In this document: piece by piece, positions 1 through 22,223 of the stretch
Numbering within the stretch: position 1 is the first letter of the stretch
How the letters are laid out: each line of letters begins with the position of its first letter
IMG/VR virus record: IMGVR_UViG_3300010398_000010
Location: 25,349-89,348 of that record
Length of the DNA stretch: 64,000 nt
Source of the DNA: a virus
Taxonomy: Duplodnaviria > Caudoviricetes
Direction: 5' to 3' (one strand)
The notes under the pieces: model-generated
Told to the model about the DNA's origin: nothing
Seen by the model: the letters and a program-made list of their open reading frames with translations, nothing else
Database searches by the model: none
Position numbers and translations under genes: made by a program

Positions 1-4
1 CACG

Positions 5-8500: not shown

Positions 8501-9027
8501 CCTCGCTGTGGATGCAGGCGGGCGGGGCGCGGAATTTGTCACACCTGATGGCCGCGATAGCGATGGCCGAATCCGGTGGCCGGTCCAACGCGGTCGGTCC
8601 GATGACCCCGTTCGGGCAGGCCAAAGGCTTGTGGCAGATCCTCGGCCAGCTTGTGAGAGGCAACATTTTCGACCCGCTGGTCAACGCGCGCAACGCCCGC
8701 GCGAAGTACCTGACGCAAGGACTCGGCGCGTGGGAGGCGTACACCAACGGCAGCTACCGGCAGTTCATGGCCGGTGGCGGGGCGATCACCGAACCGGTCG
8801 CCGGGGTCGGGCTCAAGACCGGCGCTGAGTACATGCTCGGTGAGGCCGGCACCGAATACGTGTCCAGCCAAGCCGACCTCAAGGACGTGGCCGCGGCGCT
8901 GCGCGCGGTGCTGGCTGAGCTTCGCGCTATCCGCCAGCTGACACATCAGCAGCCCGTCCGCACCGGCCGCGCCGTTGGTGAAGCACTCAACGGAGGCGCC
9001 CGCCGCGCCGCGACGCTGGGGGGCTGA
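5587..9027 (+). CDS. tape measure protein with C-terminal NlpC/P60 and lysozyme-like (SLT) domains
   Basis: 1146 aa helical Ala-rich body; PYVWGG..DCSGF..GHVAL (about 8107-8370); IAMAESGG..AKGLWQI..FDPLVNA (about 8490-8760). Confidence 0.92.
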   Translation: MPTILRYLITGDDVTGSKAFDNFRRTVERTDGAVQRQNKTLKQQDSLLKQHGKALQQAGKQTALFASHVTGAGDAFTIFSRKASMATRVMAGLNLATGLAEPLVSSLVVAMGGLAAATAAAGAGLAAYGIALKPLLGQVSDLNKAQAAAAKGSQAAKDQYAKLLKQTPPLVRKFAKEVRDAQTAYKKWADSLAGPVLAPLQIALANIKPALKAIRPLVVAAGDAFTVLMTQLDHKIQGGGIERIVTKLLPAVKPVLIDLGHSIANVFAGIWGIIKAFLPFSTTVSGGLVKMTDAFKNWATTLSGHSGFHAIVNQWKQDWPVIKPVLANLFIFLKNIISSLAAMTTPANSKALWMIANPLMAVAVKLSEHPIFVQALTYLLLIGKGAGRIKSVFDAMKTGWGTFSAILNKLTGGKIGTAMVGAGDTMLLASKNMQKAADTMAAASGLAGKAGGAAAGAGAGAAEAAGAGAAAGSAGRGGLWGKMFGRSGIAAGLARAGGVAVIAGLITDMVLKPVLSSVTQNQRAQTTFWDRPFGTGAKGSSAFESWRQLGRTITGVGHQVDPVIAGMNSKLDTLGRPGGVAPRAANELGRVSGQTSRLGGDMRSAAQPVNDLTKKSQALAQQFMSGLGAQLNRLHANTPRVRTDINNLADAIKTTGDKSKATQKDRQQLIHDLEQSGVKSSTAKTLVNHLTTAINNIPNRHSTYLKFGVNVPRGVLAHYPSAADMRAAGFAAGGPVRGPGGPTDDRAGLFPLSNKEWVIRASSATSYGSKAMDAVNKGTASVIYPGMAAGGEVGDLTAASAQKAPGGSYRIGDAPTETFALKLWQVWIDQHSGGMKAVREAMKWIGQVPYVWGGMNVPGGADCSGFVSYVYGKALGILPPRTSEAQYAWVKRTGPQPGGLAFYTNPGGGVPPGHVALVKDANTVISQGGPGKGPIVIGLHGPGPLMGTGIPPGGFSAKGGPGAGTFGESQLASLWMQAGGARNLSHLMAAIAMAESGGRSNAVGPMTPFGQAKGLWQILGQLVRGNIFDPLVNARNARAKYLTQGLGAWEAYTNGSYRQFMAGGGAITEPVAGVGLKTGAEYMLGEAGTEYVSSQADLKDVAAALRAVLAELRAIRQLTHQQPVRTGRAVGEALNGGARRAATLGG

Positions 9028-12000: not shown

Positions 12001-12099
12001 ATCACCAACCGGTTGCTGGTCTACGCCGCGCAGGGGGTGCCGGGGTTCACCGCGACGTACCTGCCGCGGTGGTGGATGGACCGGGCGGCTGGCCGATGA
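9031..12099 (+). CDS. distal tail / fibre fusion protein with carbohydrate-binding-like and glycine-rich regions
   Basis: N-terminal SNRTISLPIKI Dit-like segment; CBM-like NFLRGDATGFD segment; Gly-rich GGGGGAG region (about 10740-11340). Confidence 0.75.
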   Translation: MADSLVIAGQIELLGAEGGIPSTIPICAGAAFTLAPSYDLGAPQPVVELLAAGLLDGERPIGRRSSNRTISLPIKITAPDRDTLAAAREILLMLVDEDTWQLVWTRDGGPPLVFDCFRAAPSVPLNDILTEQQLVTYVTVSFPALPYGRNDVAEQIVFPVPSQIWDQPTSSLLLDSYGTTTNFLRGDATGFDAGIANWVPGTNCSIARSTAQSHGAPASLALTSAAAGNMDALHCAAASYSTLALRVRPGQTVNVSGWFRTAVSARSANVGALFYDANGTQVGARLAGSNITDSSSAWTQATGALTAPVGAAWAILDPQVVSTGAANEVHYFDDGDIDTGPVQTAVDNHQWFQSNVTPVTGQHSAKWARTAQDYPVYDSYLPAAVDISLRPKATIWLGLATTAAQWGNWHKGTVHVRLDLYDTSGNSISQSGRLYCRAGAIESQPHWQRIGIHLSQVNYGFDYTNVIRYVVSVWNTMDSSVVGLSGTKGQPVLQASAYLATLTATATATNVALTRGIFAEMPGVIGAARAELALQAQPGPSAFSTVTEFTTPGSNAWSAPAGVTQVDKAECWGAGGGGAGKGTGGSGPAIGGGGGGAGEYSAEYKIPVTPLSSYPATVGAAGNGGSSTNPGSSGGDSFWSGQSGPQVRANGGMGGWAGVTWGGGKGGTGSSNAVRYPGGNGHQSNANGDNFGGGGGSSGGTGSAGHSGDNDTRNGGSAVTGGGPGGSGGNWDGTPVANGQPPNKGPGGGGGGGSQKAGASGGNGFNGKVRLTYGATGILPLASLLVHAPGRDAPPTYQPICAVGNGADTPNGATEYLVPPPTGVNLNARFNGTHVVYLIAGTWNTPANSRTLTVQLRQYPYSGGAVASVNLTRTVTPNADITNGYVDMGAVTLPINAIPSGSVSAYFGLTVTSSNTADRFLDCLIMDVTGSLVLMNQAGSSVLQNVWLDPPDTNHPLGLVSGSNTDRDQAYSLTQSIERYSGHPMSVDPQITNRLLVYAAQGVPGFTATYLPRWWMDRAAGR

Positions 12100-12686
12100 C
12101 CAGTGAAAAGGCGTACTCGGTTGAGGCGCGGCTCAACGCCCTGATCGCGGCCGGGGTGGACTCCACGATCACCGACACCGGGATAACCACCGTCACCCAG
12201 GCCACCGACAACCTGCTCAGCGCGTCGTTCACGATCCCCACCGACATCGCCGGGCCGAACCTCGGCACCGAATATGAACTGGTCGCGTTCGGCTCAGGCA
12301 CCTGGGGCTCGACACAGCAAGCACTGACGCTCAACCCGCAGCTAGGCGGCACGACAGCGGGCAATACGACGGCGATCGGTCAAACACAGTTCAACGCGGG
12401 CGCTGGGTTCCGGTGGCAGTTCCGGTTCATCGCGCTCTGCACGGCAACGGGGGCCGGTGGCGCGTTCGTCATCGGCACGTTCGGCGGCGCGTCGGTCGTG
12501 TCTGGCAACATCCTTTCGGGCATCGGCAACAATGCGTCCCTGGGGTTCGCGAACGGCTCCACCCCAAGCCAGAGCATTGACACCACGGCACCGTTCACGA
12601 TGAAGCTCACCGCGTCGTGGGCATCCACCACCGGCTCCCCGTCGATCACCTGCCGGGGCACCTTGCTACACCGGAGGGGACCATGA
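12096..12686 (+). CDS. minor tail protein
   Basis: ATGA overlap with the upstream gene; Thr/Gly-rich beta-type sequence. Confidence 0.6.
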   Translation: MTSEKAYSVEARLNALIAAGVDSTITDTGITTVTQATDNLLSASFTIPTDIAGPNLGTEYELVAFGSGTWGSTQQALTLNPQLGGTTAGNTTAIGQTQFNAGAGFRWQFRFIALCTATGAGGAFVIGTFGGASVVSGNILSGIGNNASLGFANGSTPSQSIDTTAPFTMKLTASWASTTGSPSITCRGTLLHRRGP

Positions 12687-13027
12687 CCACAGTGCCGCCG
12701 GCCGCCGCGCAAATCGACGCGTGGGTAGATGGGCAGCCGGGTCTGGCGCAGCTAATCCAGAACGCCGTTCAGCAGCCCGGCCAGCCGGTCACCGCCGTGA
12801 TCGTCGCGTGGACGCAGAACGACACCACGGCACAGTTCCGCCACATCCCGCGCCCTGACCAGAACGGCGAATCGGCCGACTTTGTGCGCGGCCTGGTCGC
12901 CACCTACGGCGCGGTGACGTTGCGCGCCTACTCGTTCACCTGGGCTCAGCCCACCGCCGCGTCCATCGCCTCACCGGCGGGGACACAGACCGCAGTGAAC
13001 AACCCGGCCAACTGGGTCGTGGCCTGA
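12683..13027 (+). CDS. hypothetical protein (tail region)
   Basis: ATGA overlap, GGAGGGG RBS. Confidence 0.55.
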   Translation: MTTVPPAAAQIDAWVDGQPGLAQLIQNAVQQPGQPVTAVIVAWTQNDTTAQFRHIPRPDQNGESADFVRGLVATYGAVTLRAYSFTWAQPTAASIASPAGTQTAVNNPANWVVA

Positions 13028-14178
13028 TGGCGTCGGACCTGACCCAGATCATGACCAGCAAGGCGGACGGGTCGGATCAGCGGCTACTGAGCCAAGAGGG
13101 GTCGGTCACCGGGCTCAGCTATTCGTTCAGCACGCCGGGCGGCTGCAATCAGATGCAGTGCACGCTGGCGGTCTCAGCCGGGTGGCGGGGTAACGCGCTG
13201 AACCCCGGCCGGCTGGTGCAGGCGTGGCGCGGCGGCGCGGTCGCCTGGGCGGGGATCCTCGATGAACCCGTCCCCGGGCAAGACGGGTGGCAGGTCACCG
13301 CGCACGGCGCCGGCGCGTTCGGGGATGACTACCTCGCGCTGTGGACTGGCAGCTGGGGGACCGGCGTCTTTGACAACGCGGTCAACGCCGCCATCGGCCG
13401 CGGGCTGCCGTGGGTCAACCCCGGCATCGGCGCACCGTCTGGGATCTGGACGGGTCAAACCGTCGACTCCGGGGCGCAGACGATCACCGACTTGCTCAAT
13501 CTTGGCTGCCACAAGGGTGGCCTGACGTGGATGGTCCGCACCGGCCCCGGCGACGCCAACACGCTGTCGGTGTTCGCGCTGCCCACCGCGAGCAACCGGT
13601 ACCTGATCACCGGCGACCCCGCTGGCCGGTCGATCGGGGACGGGCCGACGACGCTGTACGTCCGGTATCAGGCGACGTGGGACACCGGCAAGACCGCCGC
13701 GACGTTCGCCACGACCTCGGTGACCAACAGCGCGCAGGAGGCCGCGTTCGGCCGGCGTGAGGACATCATGGACATCAGCAGCGCCGGGGTCTACACCGCA
13801 GGCAACGCCCAGGCGGTCGCCAGCCAAGCGCTCAAGCGATACCAGCGGGTCGCGTTCGCGGACCCGTTCACCGTCCAGCCGGGTGACCTGCTCGCGCTCG
13901 GCGGCGAGCCCGTCGACCTTGGCCTGTTCTTCGCTGACGGGTTCACGGCGATGGTGTGTGAGCTATGGCTCGCTGATTACCCCTACGGCGGCGAGGTCGC
14001 CGGCGGGCCGGTCGTTTTCCTGGTCGGTGAGTACGTCTTTAACGCCGATGGCACGGCGACGATCACCCCATTCAACTCGGAGCGGCACGACTGGTCATCA
14101 GTCATGGGTGCCGCCGTCGACGCGACCCCCGTACGCGTCAAGCCGCACAAGAAGCACAAGCGCAAGCACAAGAAATAG
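13027..14178 (+). CDS. baseplate hub / Tal-like minor tail protein
   Basis: GRLVQAWRGGAVAWAGILDEP pattern of siphovirus hub proteins; basic C-terminal tail. Confidence 0.65.
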   Translation: MASDLTQIMTSKADGSDQRLLSQEGSVTGLSYSFSTPGGCNQMQCTLAVSAGWRGNALNPGRLVQAWRGGAVAWAGILDEPVPGQDGWQVTAHGAGAFGDDYLALWTGSWGTGVFDNAVNAAIGRGLPWVNPGIGAPSGIWTGQTVDSGAQTITDLLNLGCHKGGLTWMVRTGPGDANTLSVFALPTASNRYLITGDPAGRSIGDGPTTLYVRYQATWDTGKTAATFATTSVTNSAQEAAFGRREDIMDISSAGVYTAGNAQAVASQALKRYQRVAFADPFTVQPGDLLALGGEPVDLGLFFADGFTAMVCELWLADYPYGGEVAGGPVVFLVGEYVFNADGTATITPFNSERHDWSSVMGAAVDATPVRVKPHKKHKRKHKK

Positions 14179-14194
14179 CGACGGGGGGCCGGCC

Positions 14195-14473
14195 GTGACT
14201 GATCCCAATCACCGCTATGTGGATTTCGGCCGGTGGGAAGAGGCGCACCGGGCGCTGACGGAGCGGGTCGCGGACCTTGAGCGCGCAATGATCCCCGGCC
14301 TAGAACAGCGGCTCAGCCATCTGGAGAGGGCGGTCGGGGGATGGCAGGAACGTCAGGATCAGGCGCAGCTGACCCGCCGCACGCGGGCGTGGCAGGTGGC
14401 GCTGGCGGTAGTGACCGGGCTGGTGCTGCCGCTGGCGACGATCGGGCTGGTGGCACTGTTCCACCTCGAATGA
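14195..14473 (+). CDS. coiled-coil plus C-terminal TM protein (lysis cassette, holin-like accessory)
   Basis: GTG 14195; heptad region followed by one hydrophobic helix; next to the endolysin. Confidence 0.55.
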   Translation: MTDPNHRYVDFGRWEEAHRALTERVADLERAMIPGLEQRLSHLERAVGGWQERQDQAQLTRRTRAWQVALAVVTGLVLPLATIGLVALFHLE

Positions 14474-14700
14474 GGCGGCGATTGTGGCTGGTGCAGGTCA
14501 CGGTCACGCTGCTGGTGCTGATCGGTGCCGCGTCGGTGATCATCATCGGCGTGGCCGTCGCGAACCTGTACGACCAGCAGCGCCAAACCGACGTGCGACT
14601 GTGCGTCATCGCGCAAGCCGAATGGCGGCAGATCCGCCGCCTCGCCGCCAACCAGGGCATCAGCGTGCCGCCGACCCCGCCGCCGTGCCCCAAGCCGTAA
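14470..14700 (+). CDS. small N-terminal TM protein (lysis cassette)
   Basis: ATGA overlap; one TM helix, two Cys, Pro-rich end. Confidence 0.55.
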   Translation: MRRRLWLVQVTVTLLVLIGAASVIIIGVAVANLYDQQRQTDVRLCVIAQAEWRQIRRLAANQGISVPPTPPPCPKP

Positions 14701-14714
14701 CGAGAGGCAAAGCC

Positions 14715-15647
14715 ATGACCCTGTTTGGTCCCGACGCGTCCTCATTCCAAGGCGACGTGAACTGGGGTGCCGTCGATAGCTCGATGGCGTTCGGGTTTGA
14801 AAAGGTCACCCAAGGCACGGGCTACATCAACCCGCGCTGGCAGCCAGAGAAGCCGGAAATGCTCGCGCGAGCCCGCGCTACCGGGTTCGTGCCCGGCGCG
14901 TACCTGTTCCTTGAGCAGGGCAACGGCTCCGGGCAGGCCGACTTTTTCCACCGGGTCGCCGGCGACCTCACCGGGTTCGCCCTGGCCGTGGACATTGAGC
15001 CCTCGACTTCGCGGCCGGACATGGTGACGGCCCGCTCATGCGTGTCGCGGCTGCGCCACCTGTACCCCGGAAAGCCGGTCATCGGCTACATCCCGCGCTG
15101 GTACTGGGGCAATCAGGACACGACTTTCGTGGATGTGCTCTGGGCGTCCAACTACGTCGTGCCCGGCCCAGCCGGTGCCGCCGCCTTGTATGGCCACGTC
15201 GTGCCCGCGCAATGGGCACCGTACGGCGGCCGGGCCGTGTCGCTGTTGCAGTTCACCGACAAGGCGATCATCGCCGGGGTCGCCGGGCCGTGTGACTGCT
15301 CGGCGTTCCGCGGCACAGTCCCCCAGCTGCGGGGGCTGCTGATGGCTGGCGTCGGCCAGCCACCAACAAGTGAAGGGGAGACCGACATGCACCCGCATTT
15401 CCTCAACAAGGGCAAGGGCGCCGTCACCCCGGTCGCGCTGATCGAGGCGTTCGACCGGCTGCTGTTCTTTTCCAACCAGCCGGCGGTCGTCCGCGTGGAC
15501 TGGGTCGGCGTCGATGCCAAGACGGCCGAGGTGCCCCTCGGCTACGACAAGGGGCGGCAGTCCGCCGCGATCCCGCCGAAAGCTCACGCCGCCGTGGTGC
15601 GCCGCGTCGATGACGGCGACAACGACGTGTCGATGCTGATCACCTGA
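14715..15647 (+). CDS. endolysin, GH25 muramidase
   Basis: PDASSFQG..EKVTQG..GAYLF..VDIE..IGY..LWAS..LLQFT GH25 motif series. Confidence 0.9.
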   Translation: MTLFGPDASSFQGDVNWGAVDSSMAFGFEKVTQGTGYINPRWQPEKPEMLARARATGFVPGAYLFLEQGNGSGQADFFHRVAGDLTGFALAVDIEPSTSRPDMVTARSCVSRLRHLYPGKPVIGYIPRWYWGNQDTTFVDVLWASNYVVPGPAGAAALYGHVVPAQWAPYGGRAVSLLQFTDKAIIAGVAGPCDCSAFRGTVPQLRGLLMAGVGQPPTSEGETDMHPHFLNKGKGAVTPVALIEAFDRLLFFSNQPAVVRVDWVGVDAKTAEVPLGYDKGRQSAAIPPKAHAAVVRRVDDGDNDVSMLIT

Positions 15648-15961
15648 TGGCCGGTGGCCCGATTGAGCAAAAGGCGGCGGCTGGCCCGGCCGCGACTTTG
15701 ATAGCGGGCTACCTCTCGGCGGTGCTGGTCGAGGCGGTGCCGTGGCTGCACGACCACCTCACCCCCGACCAGCGGCAGAACTTGCCGGTCATCATCGCGT
15801 TCGCGCTGTCCGCGCTGGCGGCGTGGCTCGCGCCGCACACCCACCGGCCCGACCTCGCCCCAGGCGACCCGGACACGGGGCAGGTGCAGGTCACCTACAC
15901 CCCGCCGCAGATCGGCCCGCAGACGATCACCACGACGGGGCAGCGGGGCCGGCACGAGTGA
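15647..15961 (+). CDS. holin
   Basis: Two TM helices and AAWLAPHT motif typical of actinophage holins; overlaps the endolysin stop. Confidence 0.75.
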   Translation: MAGGPIEQKAAAGPAATLIAGYLSAVLVEAVPWLHDHLTPDQRQNLPVIIAFALSALAAWLAPHTHRPDLAPGDPDTGQVQVTYTPPQIGPQTITTTGQRGRHE

Positions 15962-17442
15962 TGGACTCGACCAATGGGCACCATCCCCGTCGATCTGTGG
16001 GCGCACGCGCTGCCGAGGCTGCTCGCGGTCAGCTACGGAGCGGCGATGCTGGCGGCGCTGGCGATCCGCCTGCTGTGGCGCCGCCGCCGCTCGCATCTGT
16101 CATACCGATCCGCCCGGGCGGGCAGGCACGCCCGGTCACCCCTGAAATCAGGTACCGGCCCCGGCGCTGGCTGATCACCATCCCGCTGCTGCTGCTCGGC
16201 TGCGCGAGCGTGATCTTGCATCAGCGGCTCATCCGCGCTGAGCACATCCCCCCAGCTGCGGCGGTCGTGTGGGCATTAGCGCTGTCCGCCGTGACCGCGC
16301 AGGTCGTCATGGCGTGGCTCGGCCGCCCCTACACCGCCGACCCGCCGGCCGGGCTGCGGGTGTGCGTGATCGTCCCCTGCTATAACGAGGACCCGGCGTA
16401 CTTGCGGCGCGTGCTCGACTCGCTGCGCTGCCAGACCCGCAAGGCCGACCGGGTCATCGTTTGCGACGACGGGTCCAAGGTGTCCTACGCCGGGATCCCG
16501 GAGGCATACCCCGAAGTCACGTTCCTGCGGCAGGACAACGCGGGCAAGAAACACGCGCAGGCGGCGTGCTGGCGGGCCGACTGGGACGCGGACATTTACT
16601 GCAACATCGACAGCGATTCCGCGCTTGAGCCCCGCGCGCTTGAGCAGGGCTTGCGCCCGTTCGCTGACCCGCGCGTGCAGGCGGTCGCCGGGGTCGAGTG
16701 GGCCAGCAACTACAGCCAGAACATCCTGACCCGGTCGATGGGCGCGCGGTCGCTCGCGTTCCAACTGTTCGCGATGTCCAGCCAGAGCACCGCCCGGGGC
16801 AACGTGCTGATCGCCCCCGGCGCGTTCAGTCTCTACCGCGGGCCGATGATCCGCGAGTGCGTCGACGCCTACCTCGGTGAGACGTTCGCCGGGATCCCCG
16901 TCACGCTAGGCGACGACACGATGCTGACCTTTTTCGCGCTGATGCGCGGGCGGGTCGTGCAGCAGCCAACCGCCGTCGCGTTCCCGGCCTACCCGGAGAA
17001 GATCAGCCACCACCTGCGGCAGTGGGTCCGGTGGATGCGCGCCTCAACGATCCGGCAGATCTGGCGACTCAGGTATCTGCCGATCGCCAGTTACGGATGG
17101 TGGTTCTCGGTCTGGCAGCTGGGCGCGTTCACCGCCGGCGTCGCCGCGTCCGCGCTCGTTCTCGCGGCGTGGCCCGCCTCCGGGCAGCTGCTCATAGGAT
17201 CGCTGGCGGGCCTGTTCATGTGGCCGCTGATCCTCGCTACGCGGCTCGCGTGCCTTTCGCGTTCGGATCTGTCGGCCTGGTCAATCCTCGGCGGCGTGCT
17301 GCTCATGCCGCTCGCCGGGCTCTGGTACCTGGTCGTGCTCCGTCAGATCCGGCTGTACGGCATCGCGACGTGCACACGCCAAGGCTGGGTCACCCGCAAG
17401 AAAGTCGAGGTCCGGTTGCATGACGCGCAACCCCCGTCATAG
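15961..17442 (+). CDS. processive GT2 glycosyltransferase, hyaluronan synthase/NodC/chitin synthase-like
   Basis: VPCYNED, DDGS, NAGKKHAQ, NIDSDS, GDD and QWVRW (QxxRW) motifs; 2 N-terminal and about 3-4 C-terminal TM helices. Confidence 0.88.
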   Translation: MDSTNGHHPRRSVGARAAEAARGQLRSGDAGGAGDPPAVAPPPLASVIPIRPGGQARPVTPEIRYRPRRWLITIPLLLLGCASVILHQRLIRAEHIPPAAAVVWALALSAVTAQVVMAWLGRPYTADPPAGLRVCVIVPCYNEDPAYLRRVLDSLRCQTRKADRVIVCDDGSKVSYAGIPEAYPEVTFLRQDNAGKKHAQAACWRADWDADIYCNIDSDSALEPRALEQGLRPFADPRVQAVAGVEWASNYSQNILTRSMGARSLAFQLFAMSSQSTARGNVLIAPGAFSLYRGPMIRECVDAYLGETFAGIPVTLGDDTMLTFFALMRGRVVQQPTAVAFPAYPEKISHHLRQWVRWMRASTIRQIWRLRYLPIASYGWWFSVWQLGAFTAGVAASALVLAAWPASGQLLIGSLAGLFMWPLILATRLACLSRSDLSAWSILGGVLLMPLAGLWYLVVLRQIRLYGIATCTRQGWVTRKKVEVRLHDAQPPS

Positions 17443-18688
17443 CGCGAAACCCCGCTCAACCTCCCTCGCCCTGGCCGGCGTCGCCGTGCTCATGGTGCTC
17501 GGCGCGGTCGCCGCCGTGTTCATCCCCCTCAGCAACGGCGACGGCGCGACCTCGCTGCCGATCATGCCGGGGCTGAGCCCGGCACCGGCCAGCTTGAGCC
17601 CGGCCGCGACCGGCACGCCCAGCTCGAGCCACCCTCCGACGACCAGCCCGGCCGGCTGCTGCCCGGTCCGCCAGCCGTCGCCCGGATCCGGGGTCGTGCC
17701 GGTCGCCTACCCGGCACCGACCAAGACCTACCCGGCGCCGAACCGCACCTATCCGGCACCGTCGCGGACCTACCCGGCACCGACGACCAGCTACCCGCCG
17801 CCGCCGCCCTCACCGACGCCGCCGCCGGGCTCGGATCTGCCGCCGCCGATGAAGCTGACCGCGCCGATGACCGGTGCCGCCACGACCGACCTGGCCGCGT
17901 GGGACGCCGCGACCCACTCGACCGCGCAACTGATGGTCCGCTACGTGTCGATGGCGTCGCCGCTGTCCCCGACGTTCATTCACTCCGCGCTGCGGGTCGC
18001 CAACGGCGCGACCCCGGTGATCGAGATCCTGCTCCGCGACAGCGCCTCAACCTCCGGGCAGGGCATCACGCTGGAATCGGTCGCCAGCGGATCGCAGGAC
18101 GCGTGGCTGTCCCAGCTGCGCGACCAGATCACCGCGATGGGCCACCCGGTCATACTCAGCTTCGCCCCCGAACCCAACGGTGCCTGGTACACCTGGGGCC
18201 AGGATCCGGGCGGGTTCATCACCGCCTACCGGCATGTGCACACCGTGGTCGGCACCAACGACGTGACGTGGATGTGGCAGCCCTCGGCCAGCCAGTCGCC
18301 GCCCACCACCTCAACCGACGACCTCGGCCACTACTGGCCCGGGGCGAGCTACGTCGACTGGGTCGGGCTGGACGGCTACTACTACGTGCCCGGCGACAGC
18401 TTTGAGCACCGGTTCGCGCACAGCCTGGCCGAACTCGCGACGTGGTGGACCGGGCCGGTGATCATCGCGGAGACCGCCGTCAGCCCGGACACCAAGAACA
18501 TGCCGAACGACGTTACCGACCTGTTCGACGGGGTAACCCGTCACCACCTGCTCGGGCTGATCTATTTCGACCTCAAGCCCGTGTGCCCGCCCGAATGCGG
18601 GCAGTTCCACCCCGATTTCCGCCTTGAGTCTTACCCCCCCGCCTTGGCGGCCTACGTCAAGGCGGTTTCGACATGGCCATCCCCCTAG
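17420..18688 (+). CDS. exported/membrane-anchored GH26-family glycoside hydrolase
   Basis: N-terminal hydrophobic helix, Pro/Thr linker, LSFAPEPNGAWYTW, YWPGASYVDWVGLDGY and IIAET catalytic motifs. Confidence 0.82.
   Translation: MTRNPRHSAKPRSTSLALAGVAVLMVLGAVAAVFIPLSNGDGATSLPIMPGLSPAPASLSPAATGTPSSSHPPTTSPAGCCPVRQPSPGSGVVPVAYPAPTKTYPAPNRTYPAPSRTYPAPTTSYPPPPPSPTPPPGSDLPPPMKLTAPMTGAATTDLAAWDAATHSTAQLMVRYVSMASPLSPTFIHSALRVANGATPVIEILLRDSASTSGQGITLESVASGSQDAWLSQLRDQITAMGHPVILSFAPEPNGAWYTWGQDPGGFITAYRHVHTVVGTNDVTWMWQPSASQSPPTTSTDDLGHYWPGASYVDWVGLDGYYYVPGDSFEHRFAHSLAELATWWTGPVIIAETAVSPDTKNMPNDVTDLFDGVTRHHLLGLIYFDLKPVCPPECGQFHPDFRLESYPPALAAYVKAVSTWPSP
17706..17803 (+). repeat. five 21-nt tandem coding repeats (xxYPAP) in the GH26 linker
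   Basis: cctacccggcaccg-like units at 17706, 17727, 17748, 17769 and 17790. Confidence 0.85.
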
Positions 18689-19104
18689 CAGTCAAACTCG
18701 GCGCGCTCGCTGCGGCCGGGATCATCGGCTCGGCCTCGACCACCCCGCCGTGCGTCTGCCAGCCGGAAACCGAAACCATCAGCTGCACCGATGGGGTCTC
18801 ATCGTTCGCGGCGGCGGTGTGCACGCAGACGCCGGTCCCCGCTGGTCTGCACGCAGGTGCCGACCCCGCAGCCCCCGCTCTGACTGAGGTGACGCTGCTC
18901 TGCCCACCCGGCCATGAGACCGCGATCTCGGCCGGGTTCCGGCACCTGGCCGGCCCGTTCCGGCCGCTGCTGGAAATGTCGCCGCTGGTGCCGTCCGGCC
19001 CGCACGCCATCGGTTACCGGTTCATCTGGCGGACCAAGGGCGGGACCGACCTCAAGGTTTACATCACCTGCCAAGCGGTGACCCCCGCCGCAGCGGCCAC
19101 CTGA
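18673..19104 (+). CDS. secreted Cys-rich protein
   Basis: Signal-peptide-like N-terminus, six Cys, CPPG..AISAG...VYITC pattern; overlaps the GH26 stop. Confidence 0.6.
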   Translation: MAIPLAVKLGALAAAGIIGSASTTPPCVCQPETETISCTDGVSSFAAAVCTQTPVPAGLHAGADPAAPALTEVTLLCPPGHETAISAGFRHLAGPFRPLLEMSPLVPSGPHAIGYRFIWRTKGGTDLKVYITCQAVTPAAAAT

Positions 19105-19130
19105 ACGATCGACGATCGAAAGGGTCCGGC

Positions 19131-19829
19131 ATGGCAACTATCAGCTGGATAACCCCGTGGGGCCAGATGGCCTACGTCCGCAGCCTCAACGACGGCGTCG
19201 CACGAGCGGCGTACGACACGCCCGGTTCTTACGTGATCGGCGGCGCGGTGCCCGGCTACCGGTGCACACCGGTCCGCATGTTTTCCAGCTTCGACGCCTA
19301 CGACGCAGCCGAAATGACCGCCGGCGCGTGGGTCTGTCACGACATGGAAAAGGGCGACGGGTTCCCCGCCCCGGCGCTGGAAAAGCAGCATCCGGCGCTG
19401 GCGCACTCGGTGTTCATCAACAAGGCCAAGCGCCGCGGGCACGGGCTGATCTCCGCGCCCGGCCGTGATCTGGTCTACGTCCCCGGTGCCGACAACATGG
19501 CCAAGCCGGGGGAGGACATCAACGACGCCTACCTGCGGTGCGGGATCCCCGGCATGTGCGCGGGCGCGCAGGTGCTCTCGGTGCAGAGCCAGGGCGCGCA
19601 AAAGGATCTGGTGGCGTTCACGAACCTGCTGACCGCCGCCAAGGCGCAGCTGCCCGACCCGAACCAAGCCCTATGGATGGGGCTGACCACCCAGTTCGCG
19701 ACGGCTAAGAACCTGGTCGACGCGTACAACGCGGCGATGCCGATCGGTGTTTCGGGCTGCTGGCTGACGGTGACCAAGGACAATGCGCAGGCGGCGGTCG
19801 ATTTCCTCAAGTGGGCGTGTGTAGCCTAA
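19131..19829 (+). CDS. hypothetical protein, possibly glycoside-hydrolase-like barrel
   Basis: GAAAGG RBS; HDMEK..P..EKQHP...GLISAPGRDL...SVQSQ...WMGLTT pattern recalled from actinobacterial proteins near GT2 genes; fold is inferred. Confidence 0.45.
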   Translation: MATISWITPWGQMAYVRSLNDGVARAAYDTPGSYVIGGAVPGYRCTPVRMFSSFDAYDAAEMTAGAWVCHDMEKGDGFPAPALEKQHPALAHSVFINKAKRRGHGLISAPGRDLVYVPGADNMAKPGEDINDAYLRCGIPGMCAGAQVLSVQSQGAQKDLVAFTNLLTAAKAQLPDPNQALWMGLTTQFATAKNLVDAYNAAMPIGVSGCWLTVTKDNAQAAVDFLKWACVA

Positions 19830-19847
19830 GTCCGTCGCTGAGGCGCA

Positions 19848-19898
19848 ACCGGCCCGGTCCCCTCTCCCACGGGGGGGCCGGGCCGGTCTTTGCGTTTT
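19848..19898 (+). terminator. Rho-independent terminator ending the late operon
   Basis: ACCGGCCCGG..CCGGGCCGGT stem followed by CTTTGCGTTTT. Confidence 0.8.
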
Positions 19899-20005
19899 CA
19901 TGGGCCGGGCGTGGCGGGCTCAGCGCCTCGCAGCCAAACAGGCCGCCCCGGGCAGTGAGGGGTGGCCCGGCCCGCCGGCGCGGCACAGAGCCGCACAGAG
20001 CCGCG

Positions 20006-20296
20006 CTAGGGGTCGGTCAGGTGCATCGCGTGGACCACGGCCAGCGCGAGCAGTTCGTCATCCACCGGCCGCGACCAATCCGCTTCCGGTAGCTCGCTCA
20101 TGTCGAGGGCAACCGCGCCCTCCGGGCCGTAGTGCGCGCGGGCGGCGTCGGTCAGCCGGCGCAGGTTCGCGCCCAGCATGTCAACGTGGCTATCGCAGCA
20201 CGGGCACGCGAGGTGATAGACCTCGGTGTCGCTGAACGGTTTGAGATCATGATGCGGGCGGCGGCGCGGGCGCTGCCCGGGGTGGCGTCGTCTCAC
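20006..20296 (-). CDS. hypothetical protein with CPCC motif
   Basis: ORF track; start uncertain. Confidence 0.4.
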   Translation of the reverse strand: MRRRHPGQRPRRRPHHDLKPFSDTEVYHLACPCCDSHVDMLGANLRRLTDAARAHYGPEGAVALDMSELPEADWSRPVDDELLALAVVHAMHLTDP

Positions 20297-20443
20297 CGGT
20301 CGAGCCTAGCCGCCAAGCGGAACGCCCCGCCGCCATTGGGACGACGGGGCGCAGGCACCCTCGGGGCGAAACTACTGGACGGGGCACCTTGGCGGCGGCG
20401 TTTCCTGAGGCGCCACCGCCCCGGCTCTTAAGGGGTAACCCCG

Positions 20444-20471
20444 CCGGCCGGGAGCGTGACCTCCCGGCCGG
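20444..20471. terminator. 11-bp stem hairpin, possible terminator for - strand genes
   Basis: CCGGCCGGGAG-cgtgac-CTCCCGGCCGG; weak U tract. Confidence 0.45.
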
Positions 20472-20530
20472 GGGGCAGGTGCCGATTCTGAGCAGATGGT
20501 GTTCTGCGGCACCTTGACGGCGGCCACTCG

Positions 20531-20674
20531 TTAACCACCGCCCCGTTTGCCGCGCCCGGCGCGTTCAGCGATCGTCAGCAGAACCGCGCGGGCGGCCGAC
20601 CAGATGAGCACCGCGACCACGACGGAGACCGCCACCGTGACCGCAAGCTCGGTCCATTGGTTATCGGGCAGCAT
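20531..20674 (-). CDS. small membrane protein (47 aa)
   Basis: Hand translation MLPDNQWTELAVTVAVSVVVAVLIW...; not in the ORF track. Confidence 0.45.
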   Translation of the reverse strand: MLPDNQWTELAVTVAVSVVVAVLIWSAARAVLLTIAERAGRGKRGGG

Positions 20675-20822
20675 GGGCACCGGGATCCGGGCAGTCGTCA
20701 GGTGGTGCGCTGTCCAGCCGCTTGCGGCAGTGCGGGCAGTCCGCGAGCGAGTAGCCCAGATCAGGCGGATCGCCTAGCGGGTAGCTACTCCCCGACTCGG
20801 CCGCTGTCAGTTGGCCGCTCAT
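20661..20822 (-). CDS. small CxxC protein
   Basis: MSGQLT...CPHCRK; ATGA coupling with the upstream gene. Confidence 0.45.
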   Translation of the reverse strand: MSGQLTAAESGSSYPLGDPPDLGYSLADCPHCRKRLDSAPPDDCPDPGAHAAR

Positions 20823-20929
20823 CGCCGGGTCCTGCGGCTGCGCCGGCCGGACGCCCAGATGGCCACAAAGACGATGGCCGCCAAGATGGCGAGCAGCATG
20901 AGCAGGATGAGCGTGTGCCAAGGGGTCAT
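20819..20929 (-). CDS. small membrane peptide (36 aa)
   Basis: Hand translation MTPWHTLILLMLLAILAAIVFVAIWASGRRSRRTRR; GGGAGG RBS. Confidence 0.5.
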   Translation of the reverse strand: MTPWHTLILLMLLAILAAIVFVAIWASGRRSRRTRR

Positions 20930-20935
20930 GGTTGA

Positions 20936-21421
20936 TCACCTCCCGTCCGCTCGCCGGGTCCATGCAGCGGCCATCATTTCGACCAGGCACACCGGGCAGC
21001 CCTTGGTCCCGATGTGAACCGCGAGCAGGTGCCCGCACTGCGGGCAGCCGGTGAATATGTCATCGGTGCCAAGGATCTCCCGGTGGCAGATGTCATCGAG
21101 GTCGGCCGGCCGTGGTGCCCGCCGCTGGCGGTGCTTGCCGTTGCCGGGCGTGCCGATCACCACCCGCGCGGCATCGCCAAGGTCGAGCCCCAGCACTGTG
21201 CTGGCCGGCACGGGCAGCGGCTCAGCGGCGGTCCCGTGGACCGGGCAGTCGAGGTTCGCCTTGGTGATGTGATAGCCGGGCTGGCGCTCGGCTTTGAACC
21301 GTGGGCAGCGGCAGCCGGCCCGGTCGCGGGTCAGGTGCGCGAAACAGCTTGGGTCGCCGCAGGAGCCGGGCCAGTTGCCCAGCTGAGCGCGTTCGGTCGT
21401 GGTCTTGGTCGTGGTCGTCAT
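20936..21421 (-). CDS. Cys-rich hypothetical protein
   Basis: Several CxC/CxxC/CPVH clusters; ATGA coupling. Confidence 0.55.
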   Translation of the reverse strand: MTTTTKTTTERAQLGNWPGSCGDPSCFAHLTRDRAGCRCPRFKAERQPGYHITKANLDCPVHGTAAEPLPVPASTVLGLDLGDAARVVIGTPGNGKHRQRRAPRPADLDDICHREILGTDDIFTGCPQCGHLLAVHIGTKGCPVCLVEMMAAAWTRRADGR

Positions 21422-21714
21422 TTTGGGAGGGATCCCCCTTCCGGATCGCTGCTGACCTCAGCTTGATACGCCTTAGCAAAGGCGTCCACCGCGTTCTGAG
21501 CGGCGGTGAGGTCGTCATAGGTGCCGTTGGCAGCCGGGTGCTCGATGCGCTGGCCGTGCGCCTCTGACTGCGGTGAGGCTGGGTCGCGGGCGAAATATTG
21601 CAGGTAGTCGCCTGGCCCGCCCCACAAGATATGCGCGGTGGTGCCGGGGATCGGTCCCCAGATTTCCATGCCGCTGCCCCGGGCGAGGGCGCGGCGGCGC
21701 AGCGCGGCGCTCAT
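21418..21714 (-). CDS. hypothetical protein
   Basis: ATGA overlaps at both ends. Confidence 0.55.
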   Translation of the reverse strand: MSAALRRRALARGSGMEIWGPIPGTTAHILWGGPGDYLQYFARDPASPQSEAHGQRIEHPAANGTYDDLTAAQNAVDAFAKAYQAEVSSDPEGGSLPK

Positions 21715-22223
21715 GCGAGCACCCCCGCGAAGATGCCGTGCAGCGCCTTAGCCAGCCCAGCCGAGGTGCGGCACCCCAGGCAGGTGCCGAACGTGATCTG
21801 CACCGGAGGCCAGATCCGCCCATCGGGCATCGTGTGCGCCGGGGTCGTCAGGAACGTCGCCTCAAACCCCTGCTCTTGCACCGGCCGCAACTGGCGGCAA
21901 AGGTCGCAGGTCCAATCCTCAGCGGTGCCGGACATCGCCATCATCGGGGACAGCATGCACCGGGCGCACAGCAGCGCCTTGGTGACCATCGACCAGGTGA
22001 GCATGTCGGTCCGCCAGATGTGCCGGCAGTAGGGCCGGCCACCGGTCGCTTGCAGCCACCGGCAGAACTCGGCCCACACCGGCTCACCCCACGGCTGCAT
22101 GTCGGGCCGGTACCGCTCGCCGTAGGACGCGAAATACTGCGCGTTGTCGTCGTGGACGCGGCGGGTCATCAGCGCCGCCGCCTGCGCCGCGGACGGCACC
22201 CGGCTGTCCTTGCGCTTACCCAC
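21711..22223 (-). CDS. Cys-rich hypothetical protein
   Basis: CRH, CARC and CDLC motifs; GTG start estimated. Confidence 0.5.
   Translation of the reverse strand: MGKRKDSRVPSAAQAAALMTRRVHDDNAQYFASYGERYRPDMQPWGEPVWAEFCRWLQATGGRPYCRHIWRTDMLTWSMVTKALLCARCMLSPMMAMSGTAEDWTCDLCRQLRPVQEQGFEATFLTTPAHTMPDGRIWPPVQITFGTCLGCRTSAGLAKALHGIFAGVLA

What the first reader, a model, noticed from the sequence alone, without database searches (positions are those of the whole stretch)
15961..19898. Hyaluronan/chitin-synthase-like polysaccharide cassette translationally coupled to the lysis genes
Seen: the holin stop overlaps the GT2 start (TGATG 15959-15963). GT2, GH26 and the Cys-rich secreted gene overlap each other, a fourth hydrolase-like gene follows, and the first clear terminator is at 19848. 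The GT2 has the complete processive motif set (DDGS, DSD, GDD, QWVRW) and multiple TMs. Established: synthase plus exported hydrolase pairs make and process surface glycans, and chloroviruses use hyaluronan/chitin synthases to coat infected cells. Inference: this phage makes a beta-glycan coat on the host. With no obvious separate promoter it looks like part of the late operon rather than a classic lysogenic moron, which suggests receptor masking, cell aggregation or protection of progeny at lysis.
Basis: partly seen in the sequence, partly recalled or inferred. Interest (0 to 1): 0.82.

Follow-up and report, generated by a model that had tools for sequence, protein, structure and literature searches.

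The report
Phage-borne hyaluronan-synthase-like glycan cassette
A soil actinobacterial phage with no integrase found carries, right after its cell-bursting genes, a five-gene kit copied from its hosts for making and trimming a surface sugar polymer, the bacterial-virus counterpart of the hyaluronan synthase of algal chloroviruses; polymer and purpose are still unknown.

Summary
The cassette is real, intact and phage-borne, but the gene map needs one correction. The TGATG at 15959-15963 exists, yet ATG 15961 is not the GT2 start. A conserved 66-aa one-helix membrane gene (15974-16174) lies between the holin-like gene and the GT2, which most likely starts at GTG 16075 inside it. A co-fold supports binding of this small protein to the synthase.

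The GT2 has every processive-synthase motif and five predicted TM helices. Chlorella-virus hyaluronan synthase is its best solved match by sequence and by fold. The GH26 keeps both catalytic Glu. The fourth gene is a small TIM barrel with an invariant D-x-E and no signal peptide.

Every related phage contig with enough sequence downstream carries the same cassette. Where the upstream flank could be read (four contig groups), it directly follows the endolysin region, although the endolysin types differ. Its closest relatives are GT2-GH26 modules of Streptosporangiaceae-like soil actinomycetes.

No integrase was found, and the gene array ends at the strong terminator at 19848. Best reading: a host-derived glycan synthase and trimming module expressed during lytic infection. 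The polymer and the benefit to the phage are inferred, and hyaluronan itself is unlikely. Earlier notes of this scan describe similar cassettes on other actinophages.

The parts
14484..15647 (+). GH25-type endolysin (387 aa); context, not part of the cassette
   Evidence: Pfam PF01183 1.7e-14; PHROG endolysin families, best 9.4e-33. Its stop overlaps the next gene's ATG by 1 nt.
15647..15961 (+). Putative holin (104 aa, two hydrophobic helices); context
   Evidence: Two TM-like segments, 10-28 and 46-64. No family match. 95% identical copy in L066 after the same endolysin. The holin role is inferred from position only.
15974..16174 (+). orf66: small single-TM protein with a basic tail, predicted accessory subunit of the synthase
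   Evidence: Present with its own start in all 16 phage-clade loci, and in bacterial locus L070 just upstream of its GT2. Codon-position substitution pattern shows coding in this frame. Co-fold with the GT2: ipSAE 0.76 against a best control of 0.01. Streptomyces phage Kromp gp78 is a similar small TM protein overlapping its GT2 gp79.
16075..17442 (+). GT2 membrane-embedded processive synthase, hyaluronan-synthase/NodC-like (455 aa from GTG 16075; frame open from 15742)
   Evidence: Pfam GT2 families. NCBIfam best match NodC, 3.5e-27, far below its cut-off. PDB best match is Chlorella virus HAS, 2.8e-16 with the single sequence and 1.8e-24 with a profile. AF2 model pLDDT 86; Foldseek best CvHAS, E 2e-18, TM 0.68 over 433 columns, ahead of chitin and cellulose synthases. 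Catalytic motifs conserved.
17420..18688 (+). Membrane-anchored GH26 hydrolase with a long Pro/Thr/Tyr-rich linker (422 aa)
   Evidence: Pfam PF02156, 30.6 bits against a cut-off of 20.2. PDB best matches are beta-1,3-xylanase XYL4 (5.8e-12) and C. thermocellum endoglucanase H (8.5e-12). E251 (FAPExNG) and E351 (AETA) are invariant in 12 phage and bacterial homologues. One N-terminal TM helix at 17-35.
18673..19104 (+). Secreted Cys-rich 143-aa protein, function unknown; variable member of the cassette
   Evidence: N-terminal hydrophobic signal-like segment and 6 Cys. No family or informative Atlas match. Besides the window, found in only 2 further phage-clade lineages, L053 and L061-63.
19131..19829 (+). 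p232: small TIM-barrel, glycoside-hydrolase-like protein without a signal peptide
   Evidence: AF2 pLDDT 91.8, eight beta/alpha units. VIA-align top rows are GH18 enzymes (SleL Z 13.3, rmsd 3.6, 193 aligned) but tied with unrelated TIM barrels. Foldseek gives only generic TIM barrels. D71 and E73, just after strand 4, are invariant in 40/40 phage and bacterial homologues. Bacterial homologues carry an N-terminal export signal; the phage ones do not.
19848..19897 (+). Intrinsic terminator closing the gene array
   Evidence: 17-bp stem with 14 G-C pairs, 6-nt loop, tail CTTTGCGTTT; the strongest site in 12000-22000.

Best explanation
The stretch 15974-19829 is a five-gene, host-derived, synthase-dependent polysaccharide module fixed in a lineage of apparently lytic actinophages. 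A small one-helix membrane protein (orf66) docks onto a hyaluronan-synthase/NodC-type GT2. The GT2 polymerises a UDP-sugar at the cytoplasmic face and extrudes a beta-linked glycan through the membrane. A membrane-anchored GH26 on a long Pro-rich stalk trims the polymer outside the cell, as cognate hydrolases do in other synthase-dependent systems. A secreted Cys-rich protein is an optional extra. A signal-less TIM-barrel hydrolase-like protein either acts in the cytoplasm or reaches the glycan only once the holin opens the membrane.

The module sits at the 3' end of the tail-lysis array with almost no intergenic space and ends at a strong terminator, so it is most likely transcribed with the late genes.

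Shown: gene content, conservation, catalytic residues, fold, host origin, recurrent position after lysis genes, purifying selection. Inferred: that a polymer rather than an oligomer is made, the timing of expression, and the benefit. My preferred benefit is that the infected cell and its debris are re-coated late in infection, so that receptors are masked and progeny are not lost by re-adsorption. The sugar is unknown. A HexNAc-containing or mixed beta-1,3/1,4 polymer is the best guess; true hyaluronan is unlikely.
For: GT2 identity: all D,D,D,QxxRW-type motifs are conserved. The best solved relatives by sequence and by whole-protein fold are class I hyaluronan synthases.

Small partner: it is conserved, codes in its own frame, and is present beside the GT2 in a bacterial context and in phage Kromp. 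Co-fold ipSAE is 0.76 against a best control of 0.01. That mark was reached by 58 of 80 solved complexes and 2 of 110 mismatched pairs. The runs agree in at least 68% of contacts and the partner's pLDDT is at least 57.

GH26: both catalytic Glu are invariant.

Module conservation: GH26 lies downstream on the same strand in 39 of 41 bacterial genome loci, 41 of 41 other metagenome loci, and all 10 phage-clade loci with room. p232 is on the same strand in 8 of 8 phage-clade loci with room.

Position: the cassette directly follows the endolysin region in the window/L066 (GH25 type), L058 (another endolysin), and L055 and L057 (transglycosylase type).

Selection: GT2 against L066 shows 21 synonymous-only and 10 replacement codon differences, with differences by codon position of 6/5/27. 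dN/dS is 0.26-0.59 for GT2, GH26 and p232 against more distant relatives.

Origin: the phage GT2s form one clade (SH-aLRT 100) sister to a 59-sequence Streptosporangiaceae-type bacterial clade.

Lifestyle and operon: no tyrosine or serine integrase in a record rated 98% complete. A strong terminator lies right after p232. GC content is not anomalous.
Against: No expression data exist. The promoter scan covers only sigma-70 consensus sites and found none on either strand, so an internal actinobacterial promoter is not excluded.

A coat made only late, alongside the lysis proteins, has little time to form. Chloroviruses express their synthase early (my own knowledge).

GH26 enzymes are known for mannan, beta-1,3-xylan and mixed-linkage glucan, not for HexNAc polymers (PMC13390465 for mannanases). 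This fits poorly with a HAS/NodC-type synthase.

No UDP-glucose dehydrogenase lies in the phage or next to the bacterial GT2. The CapD-like enzyme found beside 15 of 40 bacterial genome copies is missing from the phage.

The best NCBIfam match, NodC, is an oligosaccharide synthase, so chain length is open.

The record is linear and could lack an integrase at a missing end.
Confidence: 0.55

Rival explanations
1. Lysis-completion module. The host already wears the glycan made by its own GT2-GH26 system. The phage's GH26 (anchored, on a long stalk) and the signal-less p232 (released through holin lesions like an endolysin) exist to cut that layer at lysis so that virions escape, as LysB does for the mycolate layer of mycobacteria. 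The synthase would be secondary, for example needed to place or activate the hydrolase.
For: The cassette always lies directly after the endolysin region, even when the endolysin type differs. Phage p232 copies have lost the export signal that bacterial homologues carry. Phage GH26 copies have gained a long TYPAP-repeat stalk that bacterial ones lack.
Against: The synthase and its small partner are kept intact under purifying selection in every phage relative, with all catalytic residues. A pure degradation role does not need them. Phage Kromp keeps only the small protein and GT2, with no hydrolase. Only 19 of 151 sampled genomes of the bacterial family hold the GT2 at E <= 1e-60, so many potential hosts may lack the layer (one of the 19, G128, is an unpublished genome).
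Confidence: 0.15
2. Accessory cargo used outside the lytic burst. The cassette has its own unrecognised promoter and acts in a carrier, pseudolysogenic or slow-growing hyphal state. It gives the infected mycelium a new coat (adhesion, desiccation protection or phage exclusion) in the manner of a conversion gene.
For: The region just after the lysis genes is a classical site for phage cargo genes (my own knowledge). The module is a patchy accessory trait in the bacterial family. An earlier scan note describes a HAS-like gene as a stand-alone moron on a temperate actinophage (unchecked).
Against: No integrase was found. Only 12 nt separate the holin-like gene from orf66, the other cassette junctions are overlaps apart from a 26-nt gap before p232, and there is no terminator between the lysis genes and the cassette. 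The cassette shares the strand and the terminator of the late genes.
Confidence: 0.12
3. Oligosaccharide factory. Like NodC, the GT2 makes short chito-oligosaccharide-like products rather than a polymer, and the hydrolases size them. The products would act as signals or primers that alter host wall growth or development.
For: The best curated family match is NodC (95 bits). p232 is cytoplasmic and could act on short products.
Against: The NodC score is far below the 550-bit cut-off. The whole-protein fold, including the TM region, matches polymer-exporting hyaluronan synthases best. An exported, stalked GH26 implies an extracellular polymer substrate.
Confidence: 0.08
4. Virion glycosylation. 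The GT2 decorates capsid or tail proteins with sugars, as some mycobacteriophages do.
For: Phage glycosyltransferases of family GT2 that glycosylate virions are known (my own knowledge).
Against: This enzyme is an integral membrane synthase with five TM helices and a HAS-like architecture. It is paired with hydrolases and copied from a bacterial exopolysaccharide-type module.
Confidence: 0.03

Closest known systems
Chlorovirus hyaluronan synthase (PBCV-1 A98R / CvHAS; PDB 7SP6-7SPA) and chlorovirus chitin synthases
   Same: A virus-encoded class I HAS-type GT2 membrane synthase taken from cellular life. It is the best solved match by sequence (1.8e-24 with a profile) and by fold (TM 0.68). Same motif set.
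   Different: That virus is eukaryotic and expresses the enzyme early, alongside its own UDP-GlcA and GlcN-6-P supply genes (my own knowledge). Here the host is an actinobacterium and the gene sits after the lysis genes. There is no sugar-nucleotide supply gene. Identity is only about 20%. A separate small TM partner and two hydrolase-type genes are attached.
Synthase-dependent exopolysaccharide systems with a small membrane partner and a cognate hydrolase (PgaC-PgaD/PgaB, IcaA-IcaD/IcaB, BcsA/BcsZ; Streptomyces CslA/GlxA/CslZ)
   Same: The logic is the same: a processive GT2 synthase, a tiny membrane subunit encoded by an adjacent overlapping gene, and an exported enzyme that processes the product. 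The co-fold supports orf66-GT2 binding.
   Different: No sequence relation to PgaD or IcaD was tested. The hydrolase family (GH26) and the TIM-barrel p232 differ from those systems. The GT2 is HAS/NodC-like rather than PgaC- or BcsA-like (PgaC family only 2.9e-08; BcsA absent from the sequence hits). Those systems are chromosomal, not viral.
Uncharacterised GT2-GH26(-TIM barrel) modules of Streptosporangiaceae-type soil actinomycetes
   Same: They are the direct relatives and likely source: GT2 42-60% identical, GH26 immediately downstream, and a p232 homologue nearby.
   Different: In the bacteria, p232 is on the opposite strand and carries an export signal. GH26 is often duplicated. A CapD-like sugar-nucleotide enzyme and a GH12 often lie upstream. 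The GT2 has a long N-terminal extension. No function has been published that I could find.
Streptomyces phage Kromp gp78-gp79 (MH744420)
   Same: A cultured actinophage with a 42% identical GT2, preceded by an overlapping 56-aa one-helix protein whose post-helix motif (IRFGFRRG) resembles that of orf66.
   Different: The pair is in the right arm among small membrane proteins, not after the lysis genes. It has no GH26 or p232. It is annotated only as 'glycosyltransferase'.
Phage O-antigen/serotype conversion glycosyltransferases (GtrABC type)
   Same: Phage-encoded enzymes that change the host surface glycan and affect adsorption. The only PHROG match of the GT2 is the GtrB-like family (3.8e-4).
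   Different: Those are non-processive lipid-carrier glucosyltransferases of temperate phages that add side-chain sugars. This is a processive, channel-type synthase on a phage with no integrase found.

Membership tests
Processive membrane-embedded GT2 synthases (HAS / chitin synthase / NodC / BcsA type) | GT-A domain with the D, DxD, (G/T)ED/GDD and QxxRW motifs | tested here: met
   DDGS, DSDS, GDD and QWxRW are invariant in 30 homologues apart from G171 (at least 90%) and the x position. They align with IDSDT, GDDR and QQTRW of CvHAS. Pfam PF13641, PF00535 and PF13632 score above their cut-offs.
Processive membrane-embedded GT2 synthases (HAS / chitin synthase / NodC / BcsA type) | TM helices on both sides of the GT domain, forming a translocation channel | tested here: inconclusive
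   Two N-terminal and three C-terminal TM helices are predicted. The whole-protein fold match to CvHAS and XlHAS1 has TM 0.68-0.71. Whether the channel is open was not examined.
Processive membrane-embedded GT2 synthases (HAS / chitin synthase / NodC / BcsA type) | Makes and exports a polymer | not testable with these tools
   Needs expression and product analysis.
Class I hyaluronan synthase (functional HAS) | Closest solved relatives are HAS enzymes | tested here: met
   CvHAS 1.8e-24 and XlHAS1 8.2e-15, against chitin synthase 0.009 and no cellulose synthase hit. The Foldseek ranking agrees.
Class I hyaluronan synthase (functional HAS) | Linked UDP-glucuronate supply (hasB-type UDP-glucose dehydrogenase), as in has operons and chloroviruses | tested here: not met
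   No PF03721 match in the phage record. In bacterial genome G001 the matches lie on contigs other than the one with the GT2.
NodC chitooligosaccharide synthase (TIGR04242) | Score above the curated equivalog cut-off | tested here: not met
   95.4 bits against a cut-off of 550.
Glycoside hydrolase family 26 | Family profile match above threshold | tested here: met
   PF02156, 30.6 bits against 20.2, though over only part of the domain. PDB GH26 enzymes match at 6e-12 to 1e-10 over residues 217-417.
Glycoside hydrolase family 26 | Two catalytic glutamates (acid/base in the ExNG motif, nucleophile in the AE motif) | tested here: met
   E251 and E351 are invariant in 12 homologues. They align with the HEANG and IIAEF segments of C. 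thermocellum endoglucanase H. That these are the catalytic residues is from my own knowledge.
Glycoside hydrolase family 26 | Substrate (mannan, beta-1,3-xylan or mixed-linkage glucan) | not testable with these tools
   Needs an enzyme assay on the synthase product and on standard glycans.
GH18/GH56-type substrate-assisted hydrolases (considered for p232) | (beta/alpha)8 barrel with a D-x-E at the end of strand 4 | tested here: met
   TIM barrel with pLDDT 91.8; strand 4 spans residues 67-72. D71 and E73 are invariant in 40/40 homologues.
GH18/GH56-type substrate-assisted hydrolases (considered for p232) | Sequence or structure match that stands clear of other TIM barrels | tested here: inconclusive
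   No Pfam, NCBIfam or PHROG match. GH18 enzymes take ranks 1, 2, 4, 5 and 9 in VIA-align (Z 12.1-13.3) but are tied with synthases and aldolases. Atlas names GH56 and GH18 clusters only at 0.79-0.85.
Holin (for the 104-aa gene) | Small membrane protein encoded next to the endolysin | tested here: met
   Two hydrophobic helices; its start overlaps the endolysin stop. No family match, so the assignment rests on position only.
PgaD/IcaD-like small synthase subunit (for orf66; works-like, not membership) | Tiny membrane protein, gene overlapping the synthase gene, binds the synthase TM region | tested here: met
   100-nt overlap with the GT2 gene. Co-fold ipSAE 0.76 against a best control of 0.01, a mark reached by 58 of 80 solved complexes and 2 of 110 mismatched pairs; contact agreement at least 68%; partner pLDDT at least 57. 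The interface joins orf66 residues 3-36 to GT2 residues 48-69 and 329-375. Homology to PgaD or IcaD was not tested.

The most novel reading that the evidence does not exclude
Actinophages have repeatedly captured a two-component hyaluronan-synthase-like machine (a tiny TM subunit plus a GT2) together with its trimming hydrolases, and they run it from the lysis operon. At the moment of burst the dying cell and its debris are wrapped in a new HexNAc-type beta-glycan that hides receptors or embeds the progeny. This would be the first bacterial-virus equivalent of the chlorovirus hyaluronan coat, and it would also define an uncharacterised exopolysaccharide system of Streptosporangiaceae-type actinomycetes.
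Probability: 0.3. Interest if true: 0.8.

Novelty: new variant of a known kind. Interest (0 to 1): 0.62.

Why it matters
Virus-made surface polymers are known from algal chloroviruses, and phage conversion enzymes only decorate existing glycans. I found no paper describing a phage-borne processive synthase module.

If this module is active, phages can rebuild the host surface during lytic growth. That bears on superinfection, on loss of progeny to debris, and on aggregation in soil mycelia.

It also warns against reading viral GH26 genes in soil viromes as carbon-degradation genes. Here the GH26 is part of a biosynthetic module.

The predicted small subunit suggests that some HAS-like synthases work as two-protein machines. 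Phage Kromp (gp78-79, host Streptomyces lividans) offers a cultured system in which to test this.

Tried and rejected

Searches that found nothing useful:
- Megablast of the region against phage records: no match.
- PADLOC: no defence family for any of six proteins.
- PHROGs: nothing for GH26, the Cys-rich protein, p232, the holin-like protein or orf66.
- The Cys-rich protein gave no useful Atlas match; its Atlas model has pLDDT 0.51.
- Foldseek on p232 gave only generic TIM barrels.
- Pfam on tail and neighbouring proteins added nothing about a virion depolymerase.
- tRNA scan: none found.

Literature: the one GH26 plus GT2 actinomycete paper found (PMC13390465) concerns a Wzx/Wzy cluster of Actinoplanes and is a different system.

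An error I corrected: my first dN/dS for the GT2 against L066 was out of frame (2.5). I redid it in frame.

Readings rejected:
- ATG 15961 as the GT2 start.
- A host flank or a prophage edge. The cassette lies at 41-45 kb of an 89-kb virus record, between tail-lysis and replication genes, and relatives share it.
- True hyaluronan as the product.

Full report
SETTING. The window is bases 25349-89348 of an 89,348-bp IMG/VR virus record, linear and rated 98% complete by CheckV. GC content is about 70% throughout, with no dip or rise over the cassette. On the + strand lie a tape-measure gene (5587-9027), minor tail genes, a GH25 endolysin (14484-15647) and a 104-aa protein with two hydrophobic helices that starts on the endolysin's stop (15647-15961). 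The stretch in question follows. Neither a tyrosine nor a serine integrase family matches anywhere in the record, and the window holds no tRNA.

CHECK OF THE OBSERVATION. The TGATG at 15959-15963 is there. So are the GT2/GH26 overlap (23 nt), the GH26/Cys-rich overlap (16 nt), the fourth gene (19131-19829) and the terminator at 19848-19887. The terminator has a 17-bp stem with 14 G-C pairs and a T-rich tail, and it is the strongest such site between 12000 and 22000.

One point is wrong: ATG 15961 is not the start of the GT2. A 66-aa ORF in another frame (15974-16174) encodes one TM helix followed by RRRR. It recurs with its own start codon in all 16 loci that carry close relatives of the GT2. 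Between relatives, substitutions in 15974-16074 fall 172/101/227 on positions 1/2/3 of that small frame. This is the pattern of a coding frame, and the third position of the GT2 frame is the least variable. After 16175 the pattern flips to the GT2 frame, and in 16075-16171 it is flat, as expected for double coding.

The record's own gene call (P0005, 455 aa) starts at GTG 16075, and calls in two relatives start at the same alignment column. That GTG is kept in the six nearest DNA relatives. I therefore read the GT2 as 16075-17442, overlapping orf66 by 100 nt. The exact start is still an inference.

THE SYNTHASE. The GT2 matches three Pfam GT2 families. Its best curated match is NodC, but at 95 bits against a 550-bit cut-off. 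Against solved structures the best match is Chlorella-virus hyaluronan synthase: 2.8e-16 with the single sequence and 1.8e-24 with a 30-sequence profile. Xenopus HAS1 follows at 8e-15, chitin synthase reaches only 0.009, and no cellulose synthase appears.

An AlphaFold model (pLDDT 86) has two N-terminal and three C-terminal TM helices around a GT-A domain. By Foldseek it matches CvHAS best (E 2e-18, TM 0.68, 433 columns) and XlHAS1 next (TM up to 0.71). Yeast Chs1 and BcsA come well behind, at E of about 1e-10 to 1e-11.

DDGS, DSDS, GDD and QWxRW are invariant across 30 homologues apart from G171 (at least 90%) and the x position. The enzyme is thus a member of the processive HAS/NodC/chitin-synthase branch. 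The product is not known. No UDP-glucose dehydrogenase lies in the phage or near the bacterial homologues, so I do not call it a hyaluronan synthase.

THE SMALL PARTNER. orf66 is not simply a lysis gene. A similar small ORF sits just upstream of the GT2 in L070, whose neighbours are ordinary bacterial genes: a melibiase, a luciferase-like oxidoreductase and a Ser/Thr kinase. In the cultured Streptomyces phage Kromp, a 56-aa one-helix protein (gp78) overlaps the start of its 42%-identical GT2 (gp79). Its post-helix motif, IRFGFRRG, resembles that of orf66.

A co-fold of orf66 with the GT2, both given as alignments, scored ipSAE 0.76 against a best control of 0.01. That mark was reached by 58 of 80 solved complexes and by 2 of 110 mismatched pairs. 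The three runs agree in at least 68% of contacts, and the partner's pLDDT is at least 57. The orf66 helix (residues 3-36) packs against GT2 residues 48-69 and 329-375. I know of no solved complex of this kind, so memory of a template is unlikely. Still, this is model confidence and not a measurement. The arrangement works like PgaD with PgaC or IcaD with IcaA; homology to those proteins was not tested.

THE OTHER THREE GENES. The GH26 passes the Pfam cut-off. Its best solved matches are a beta-1,3-xylanase and the C. thermocellum endoglucanase H domain (about 1e-11). Both catalytic glutamates (E251, E351) are invariant in 12 phage and bacterial homologues. It has one N-terminal TM helix. In the phage copies only, a long stalk of TYPAP-type repeats follows the helix.

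The 143-aa Cys-rich protein has a signal-like N-terminus and no informative relatives. It is present in only some phage relatives.

p232 folds with confidence (pLDDT 91.8) into a small TIM barrel. Foldseek finds only generic barrels. The exhaustive aligner puts GH18 enzymes at ranks 1, 2, 4, 5 and 9 (best: SleL, Z 13.3, rmsd 3.6, 193 residues aligned), but these are tied with unrelated barrels. The Atlas names GH56 and GH18 clusters only at lead level.

D71 and E73, just after strand 4, are invariant in 40 of 40 phage and bacterial homologues, and no conserved Glu follows strand 7. From my own knowledge, that is the layout of substrate-assisted enzymes acting on N-acetylhexosamine linkages. 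It is a lead, not a family assignment. Bacterial homologues carry an N-terminal export signal, and none of the eleven phage-clade copies aligned does.

RELATIVES AND ORIGIN. A search of 5.8 billion proteins found homologues at 60-82% identity on contigs of up to 127 kb, and many more at about 50-55%.

Fetched loci fall into two groups. The first is a phage clade of 16 loci, about ten of them distinct, with the GT2 60-94% identical to the window's.
- All carry orf66 before the GT2.
- All 10 with at least 1.1 kb of room carry GH26 next.
- All 8 with room carry p232 on the same strand.
- L066 repeats endolysin, holin, orf66 and GT2 at 86-98% identity.
- L058 is a 49-kb viral contig sharing the tape-measure and tail genes, but it has a different endolysin before the cassette.
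- L055 and L057 have a transglycosylase-type endolysin before it, and L057 also has primase/helicase genes upstream.

The second group is bacterial. It comprises 46 genome loci, almost all Streptosporangiaceae or unclassified Actinomycetes MAGs, and 64 further metagenome loci.
- The GT2 is 42-60% identical.
- GH26 lies downstream on the same strand in 39 of 41 and in 41 of 41 loci with room.
- A p232 homologue lies on the opposite strand in 17 of 37 genome loci.
- A CapD-like sugar-nucleotide enzyme lies just upstream in 15 of 40.
- A GH12 lies upstream in 11 of 39.

In a quick maximum-likelihood tree of 102 GT2s, the phage-context sequences plus a small bacterial subgroup (L067, L068, L071, L072) form one clade with SH-aLRT support of 100. 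That clade is sister to a 59-sequence bacterial clade. The tree is unrooted and drawn at its midpoint, so the direction of transfer is inferred.

Other viral contigs (L003-L006) hold more distant GT2-GH26 pairs on separate long branches. L006 looks phage-like, with a GH25 endolysin carrying a PG-binding domain 7 kb away. Together with Kromp, this suggests more than one capture.

In the bacterial family of one source genome, 19 of 151 sampled genomes hold the GT2 at E <= 1e-60. One of the 19, G128, is unpublished, and this tally partly rests on it. The module is therefore an accessory trait in the bacteria.

SELECTION. The GT2 differs from its L066 copy at 31 codons, of which 21 are synonymous-only, with differences by codon position of 6/5/27. 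Against more distant relatives, dN/dS is 0.26 for the GT2, 0.43 for the GH26 catalytic part and 0.52-0.59 for p232, with synonymous sites near saturation. The cassette is being kept.

HOW IT MOST LIKELY WORKS. The parts add up to a synthase-dependent polysaccharide system: a synthase with a small membrane subunit, an exported trimming hydrolase, and a second hydrolase-like barrel. The phage copied it from the kind of bacteria it infects and keeps it at the end of the tail-lysis array. Apart from a 12-nt gap before orf66 and a 26-nt gap before p232, the genes overlap, and there is no terminator until 19848. No integrase was found.

The simplest reading is therefore expression with the late genes during lytic growth. 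A beta-glycan would be laid on the infected cell, trimmed outside by GH26, and met by p232 either in the cytoplasm or after the membrane is breached. The benefit I favour is masking receptors on the infected cell and its debris, so that other phages are excluded and progeny are not wasted.

Evidence on the sugar is mixed. HAS/NodC kinship, the D-x-E barrel and the CapD-like neighbour in the bacteria point to N-acetylhexosamine. The known GH26 activities point to mannan, xylan or mixed-linkage glucan.

RIVALS. A lysis-completion role for the hydrolases fits three things: the position, the loss of p232's signal peptide and the new GH26 stalk. It does not explain why the synthase and its partner are conserved, nor Kromp's hydrolase-free pair. 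The other rivals are cargo expressed from a hidden promoter in a carrier state, a NodC-like oligosaccharide product, and virion glycosylation. They are weighed in the rival list.

COMPARISON AND NOVELTY. The nearest known case is the chlorovirus hyaluronan synthase, which belongs to the same enzyme branch and is also viral. Here the host is a bacterium, the gene sits with the lysis genes, no sugar-nucleotide supply gene is present, and a small partner and hydrolases come with it. Full-text searches found no report of a processive polysaccharide synthase in a bacteriophage. They also found no study of the bacterial GT2-GH26 module.

Earlier notes of this scan describe HAS-like synthases on other actinophages. 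One has a 'tiny membrane partner'. Two describe cassettes that add GH26, GH18, a deacetylase and a sugar dehydrogenase. These notes are unchecked leads, but they agree that the theme recurs. I rate this a new variant of a known kind.

LIMITS. There are no expression data and no product, and the host is inferred only from homologues and GC content. The GT2 start is inferred.

Noticed in passing
window 17420-18688 (GH26 residues about 100-140): Phage GH26 copies carry 3-6 tandem (R)TYPAP-type repeats in a Pro-rich stalk between the TM anchor and the catalytic domain. Bacterial homologues lack this stalk.
   Followed up: partly
L133 5639-7317 (Streptomyces phage Kromp gp78-gp79): A cultured phage has the same pairing of a small TM protein and a HAS-like GT2, with overlapping genes, but no GH26 or p232. 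Several small membrane proteins follow it. It is a tractable test system.
   Followed up: partly
L009 4806-7549 and L028 5019-7712: In the bacterial clade, a GH12-family protein and a CapD-like Polysacc_synt_2 sugar-nucleotide dehydratase/epimerase often lie just upstream of the GT2, with a LuxR-type response regulator nearby in L009. The phage has neither enzyme.
   Followed up: partly
L029, L032-L035, L044, L046, L047, L049-L052: In many MAG loci the GT2 or GH26 match is split into several frames. This may be long-read assembly error or real pseudogenes. L029 is labelled Acidobacteriaceae but its GT2 sits inside the Streptosporangiaceae-type clade, which suggests a binning error.
   Followed up: no
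L055 3733-4041 and L057 9400-9840: In two phage relatives the ORF between the endolysin and orf66 is a soluble Cys-containing protein (shared motif ERLAALSEG.CILC) with no TM helix. No holin is evident at that position there.
   Followed up: no
L006 9815-12825 and 18613-20100; L003-L005: Other large viral contigs (37-160 kb) carry distant GT2-GH26 pairs at 39-44% identity. L006 also has a GH25 endolysin with a PG-binding domain 7 kb away on the other strand. These may be independent captures.
   Followed up: partly
window 1-1414: An earlier scan note reports a fibre-like protein with a DUF4038 glycosidase-like domain ending here. Pfam found nothing in the 469 aa that lie inside this window. 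If it is a virion depolymerase, it may bear on which host glycan the phage meets.
   Followed up: no
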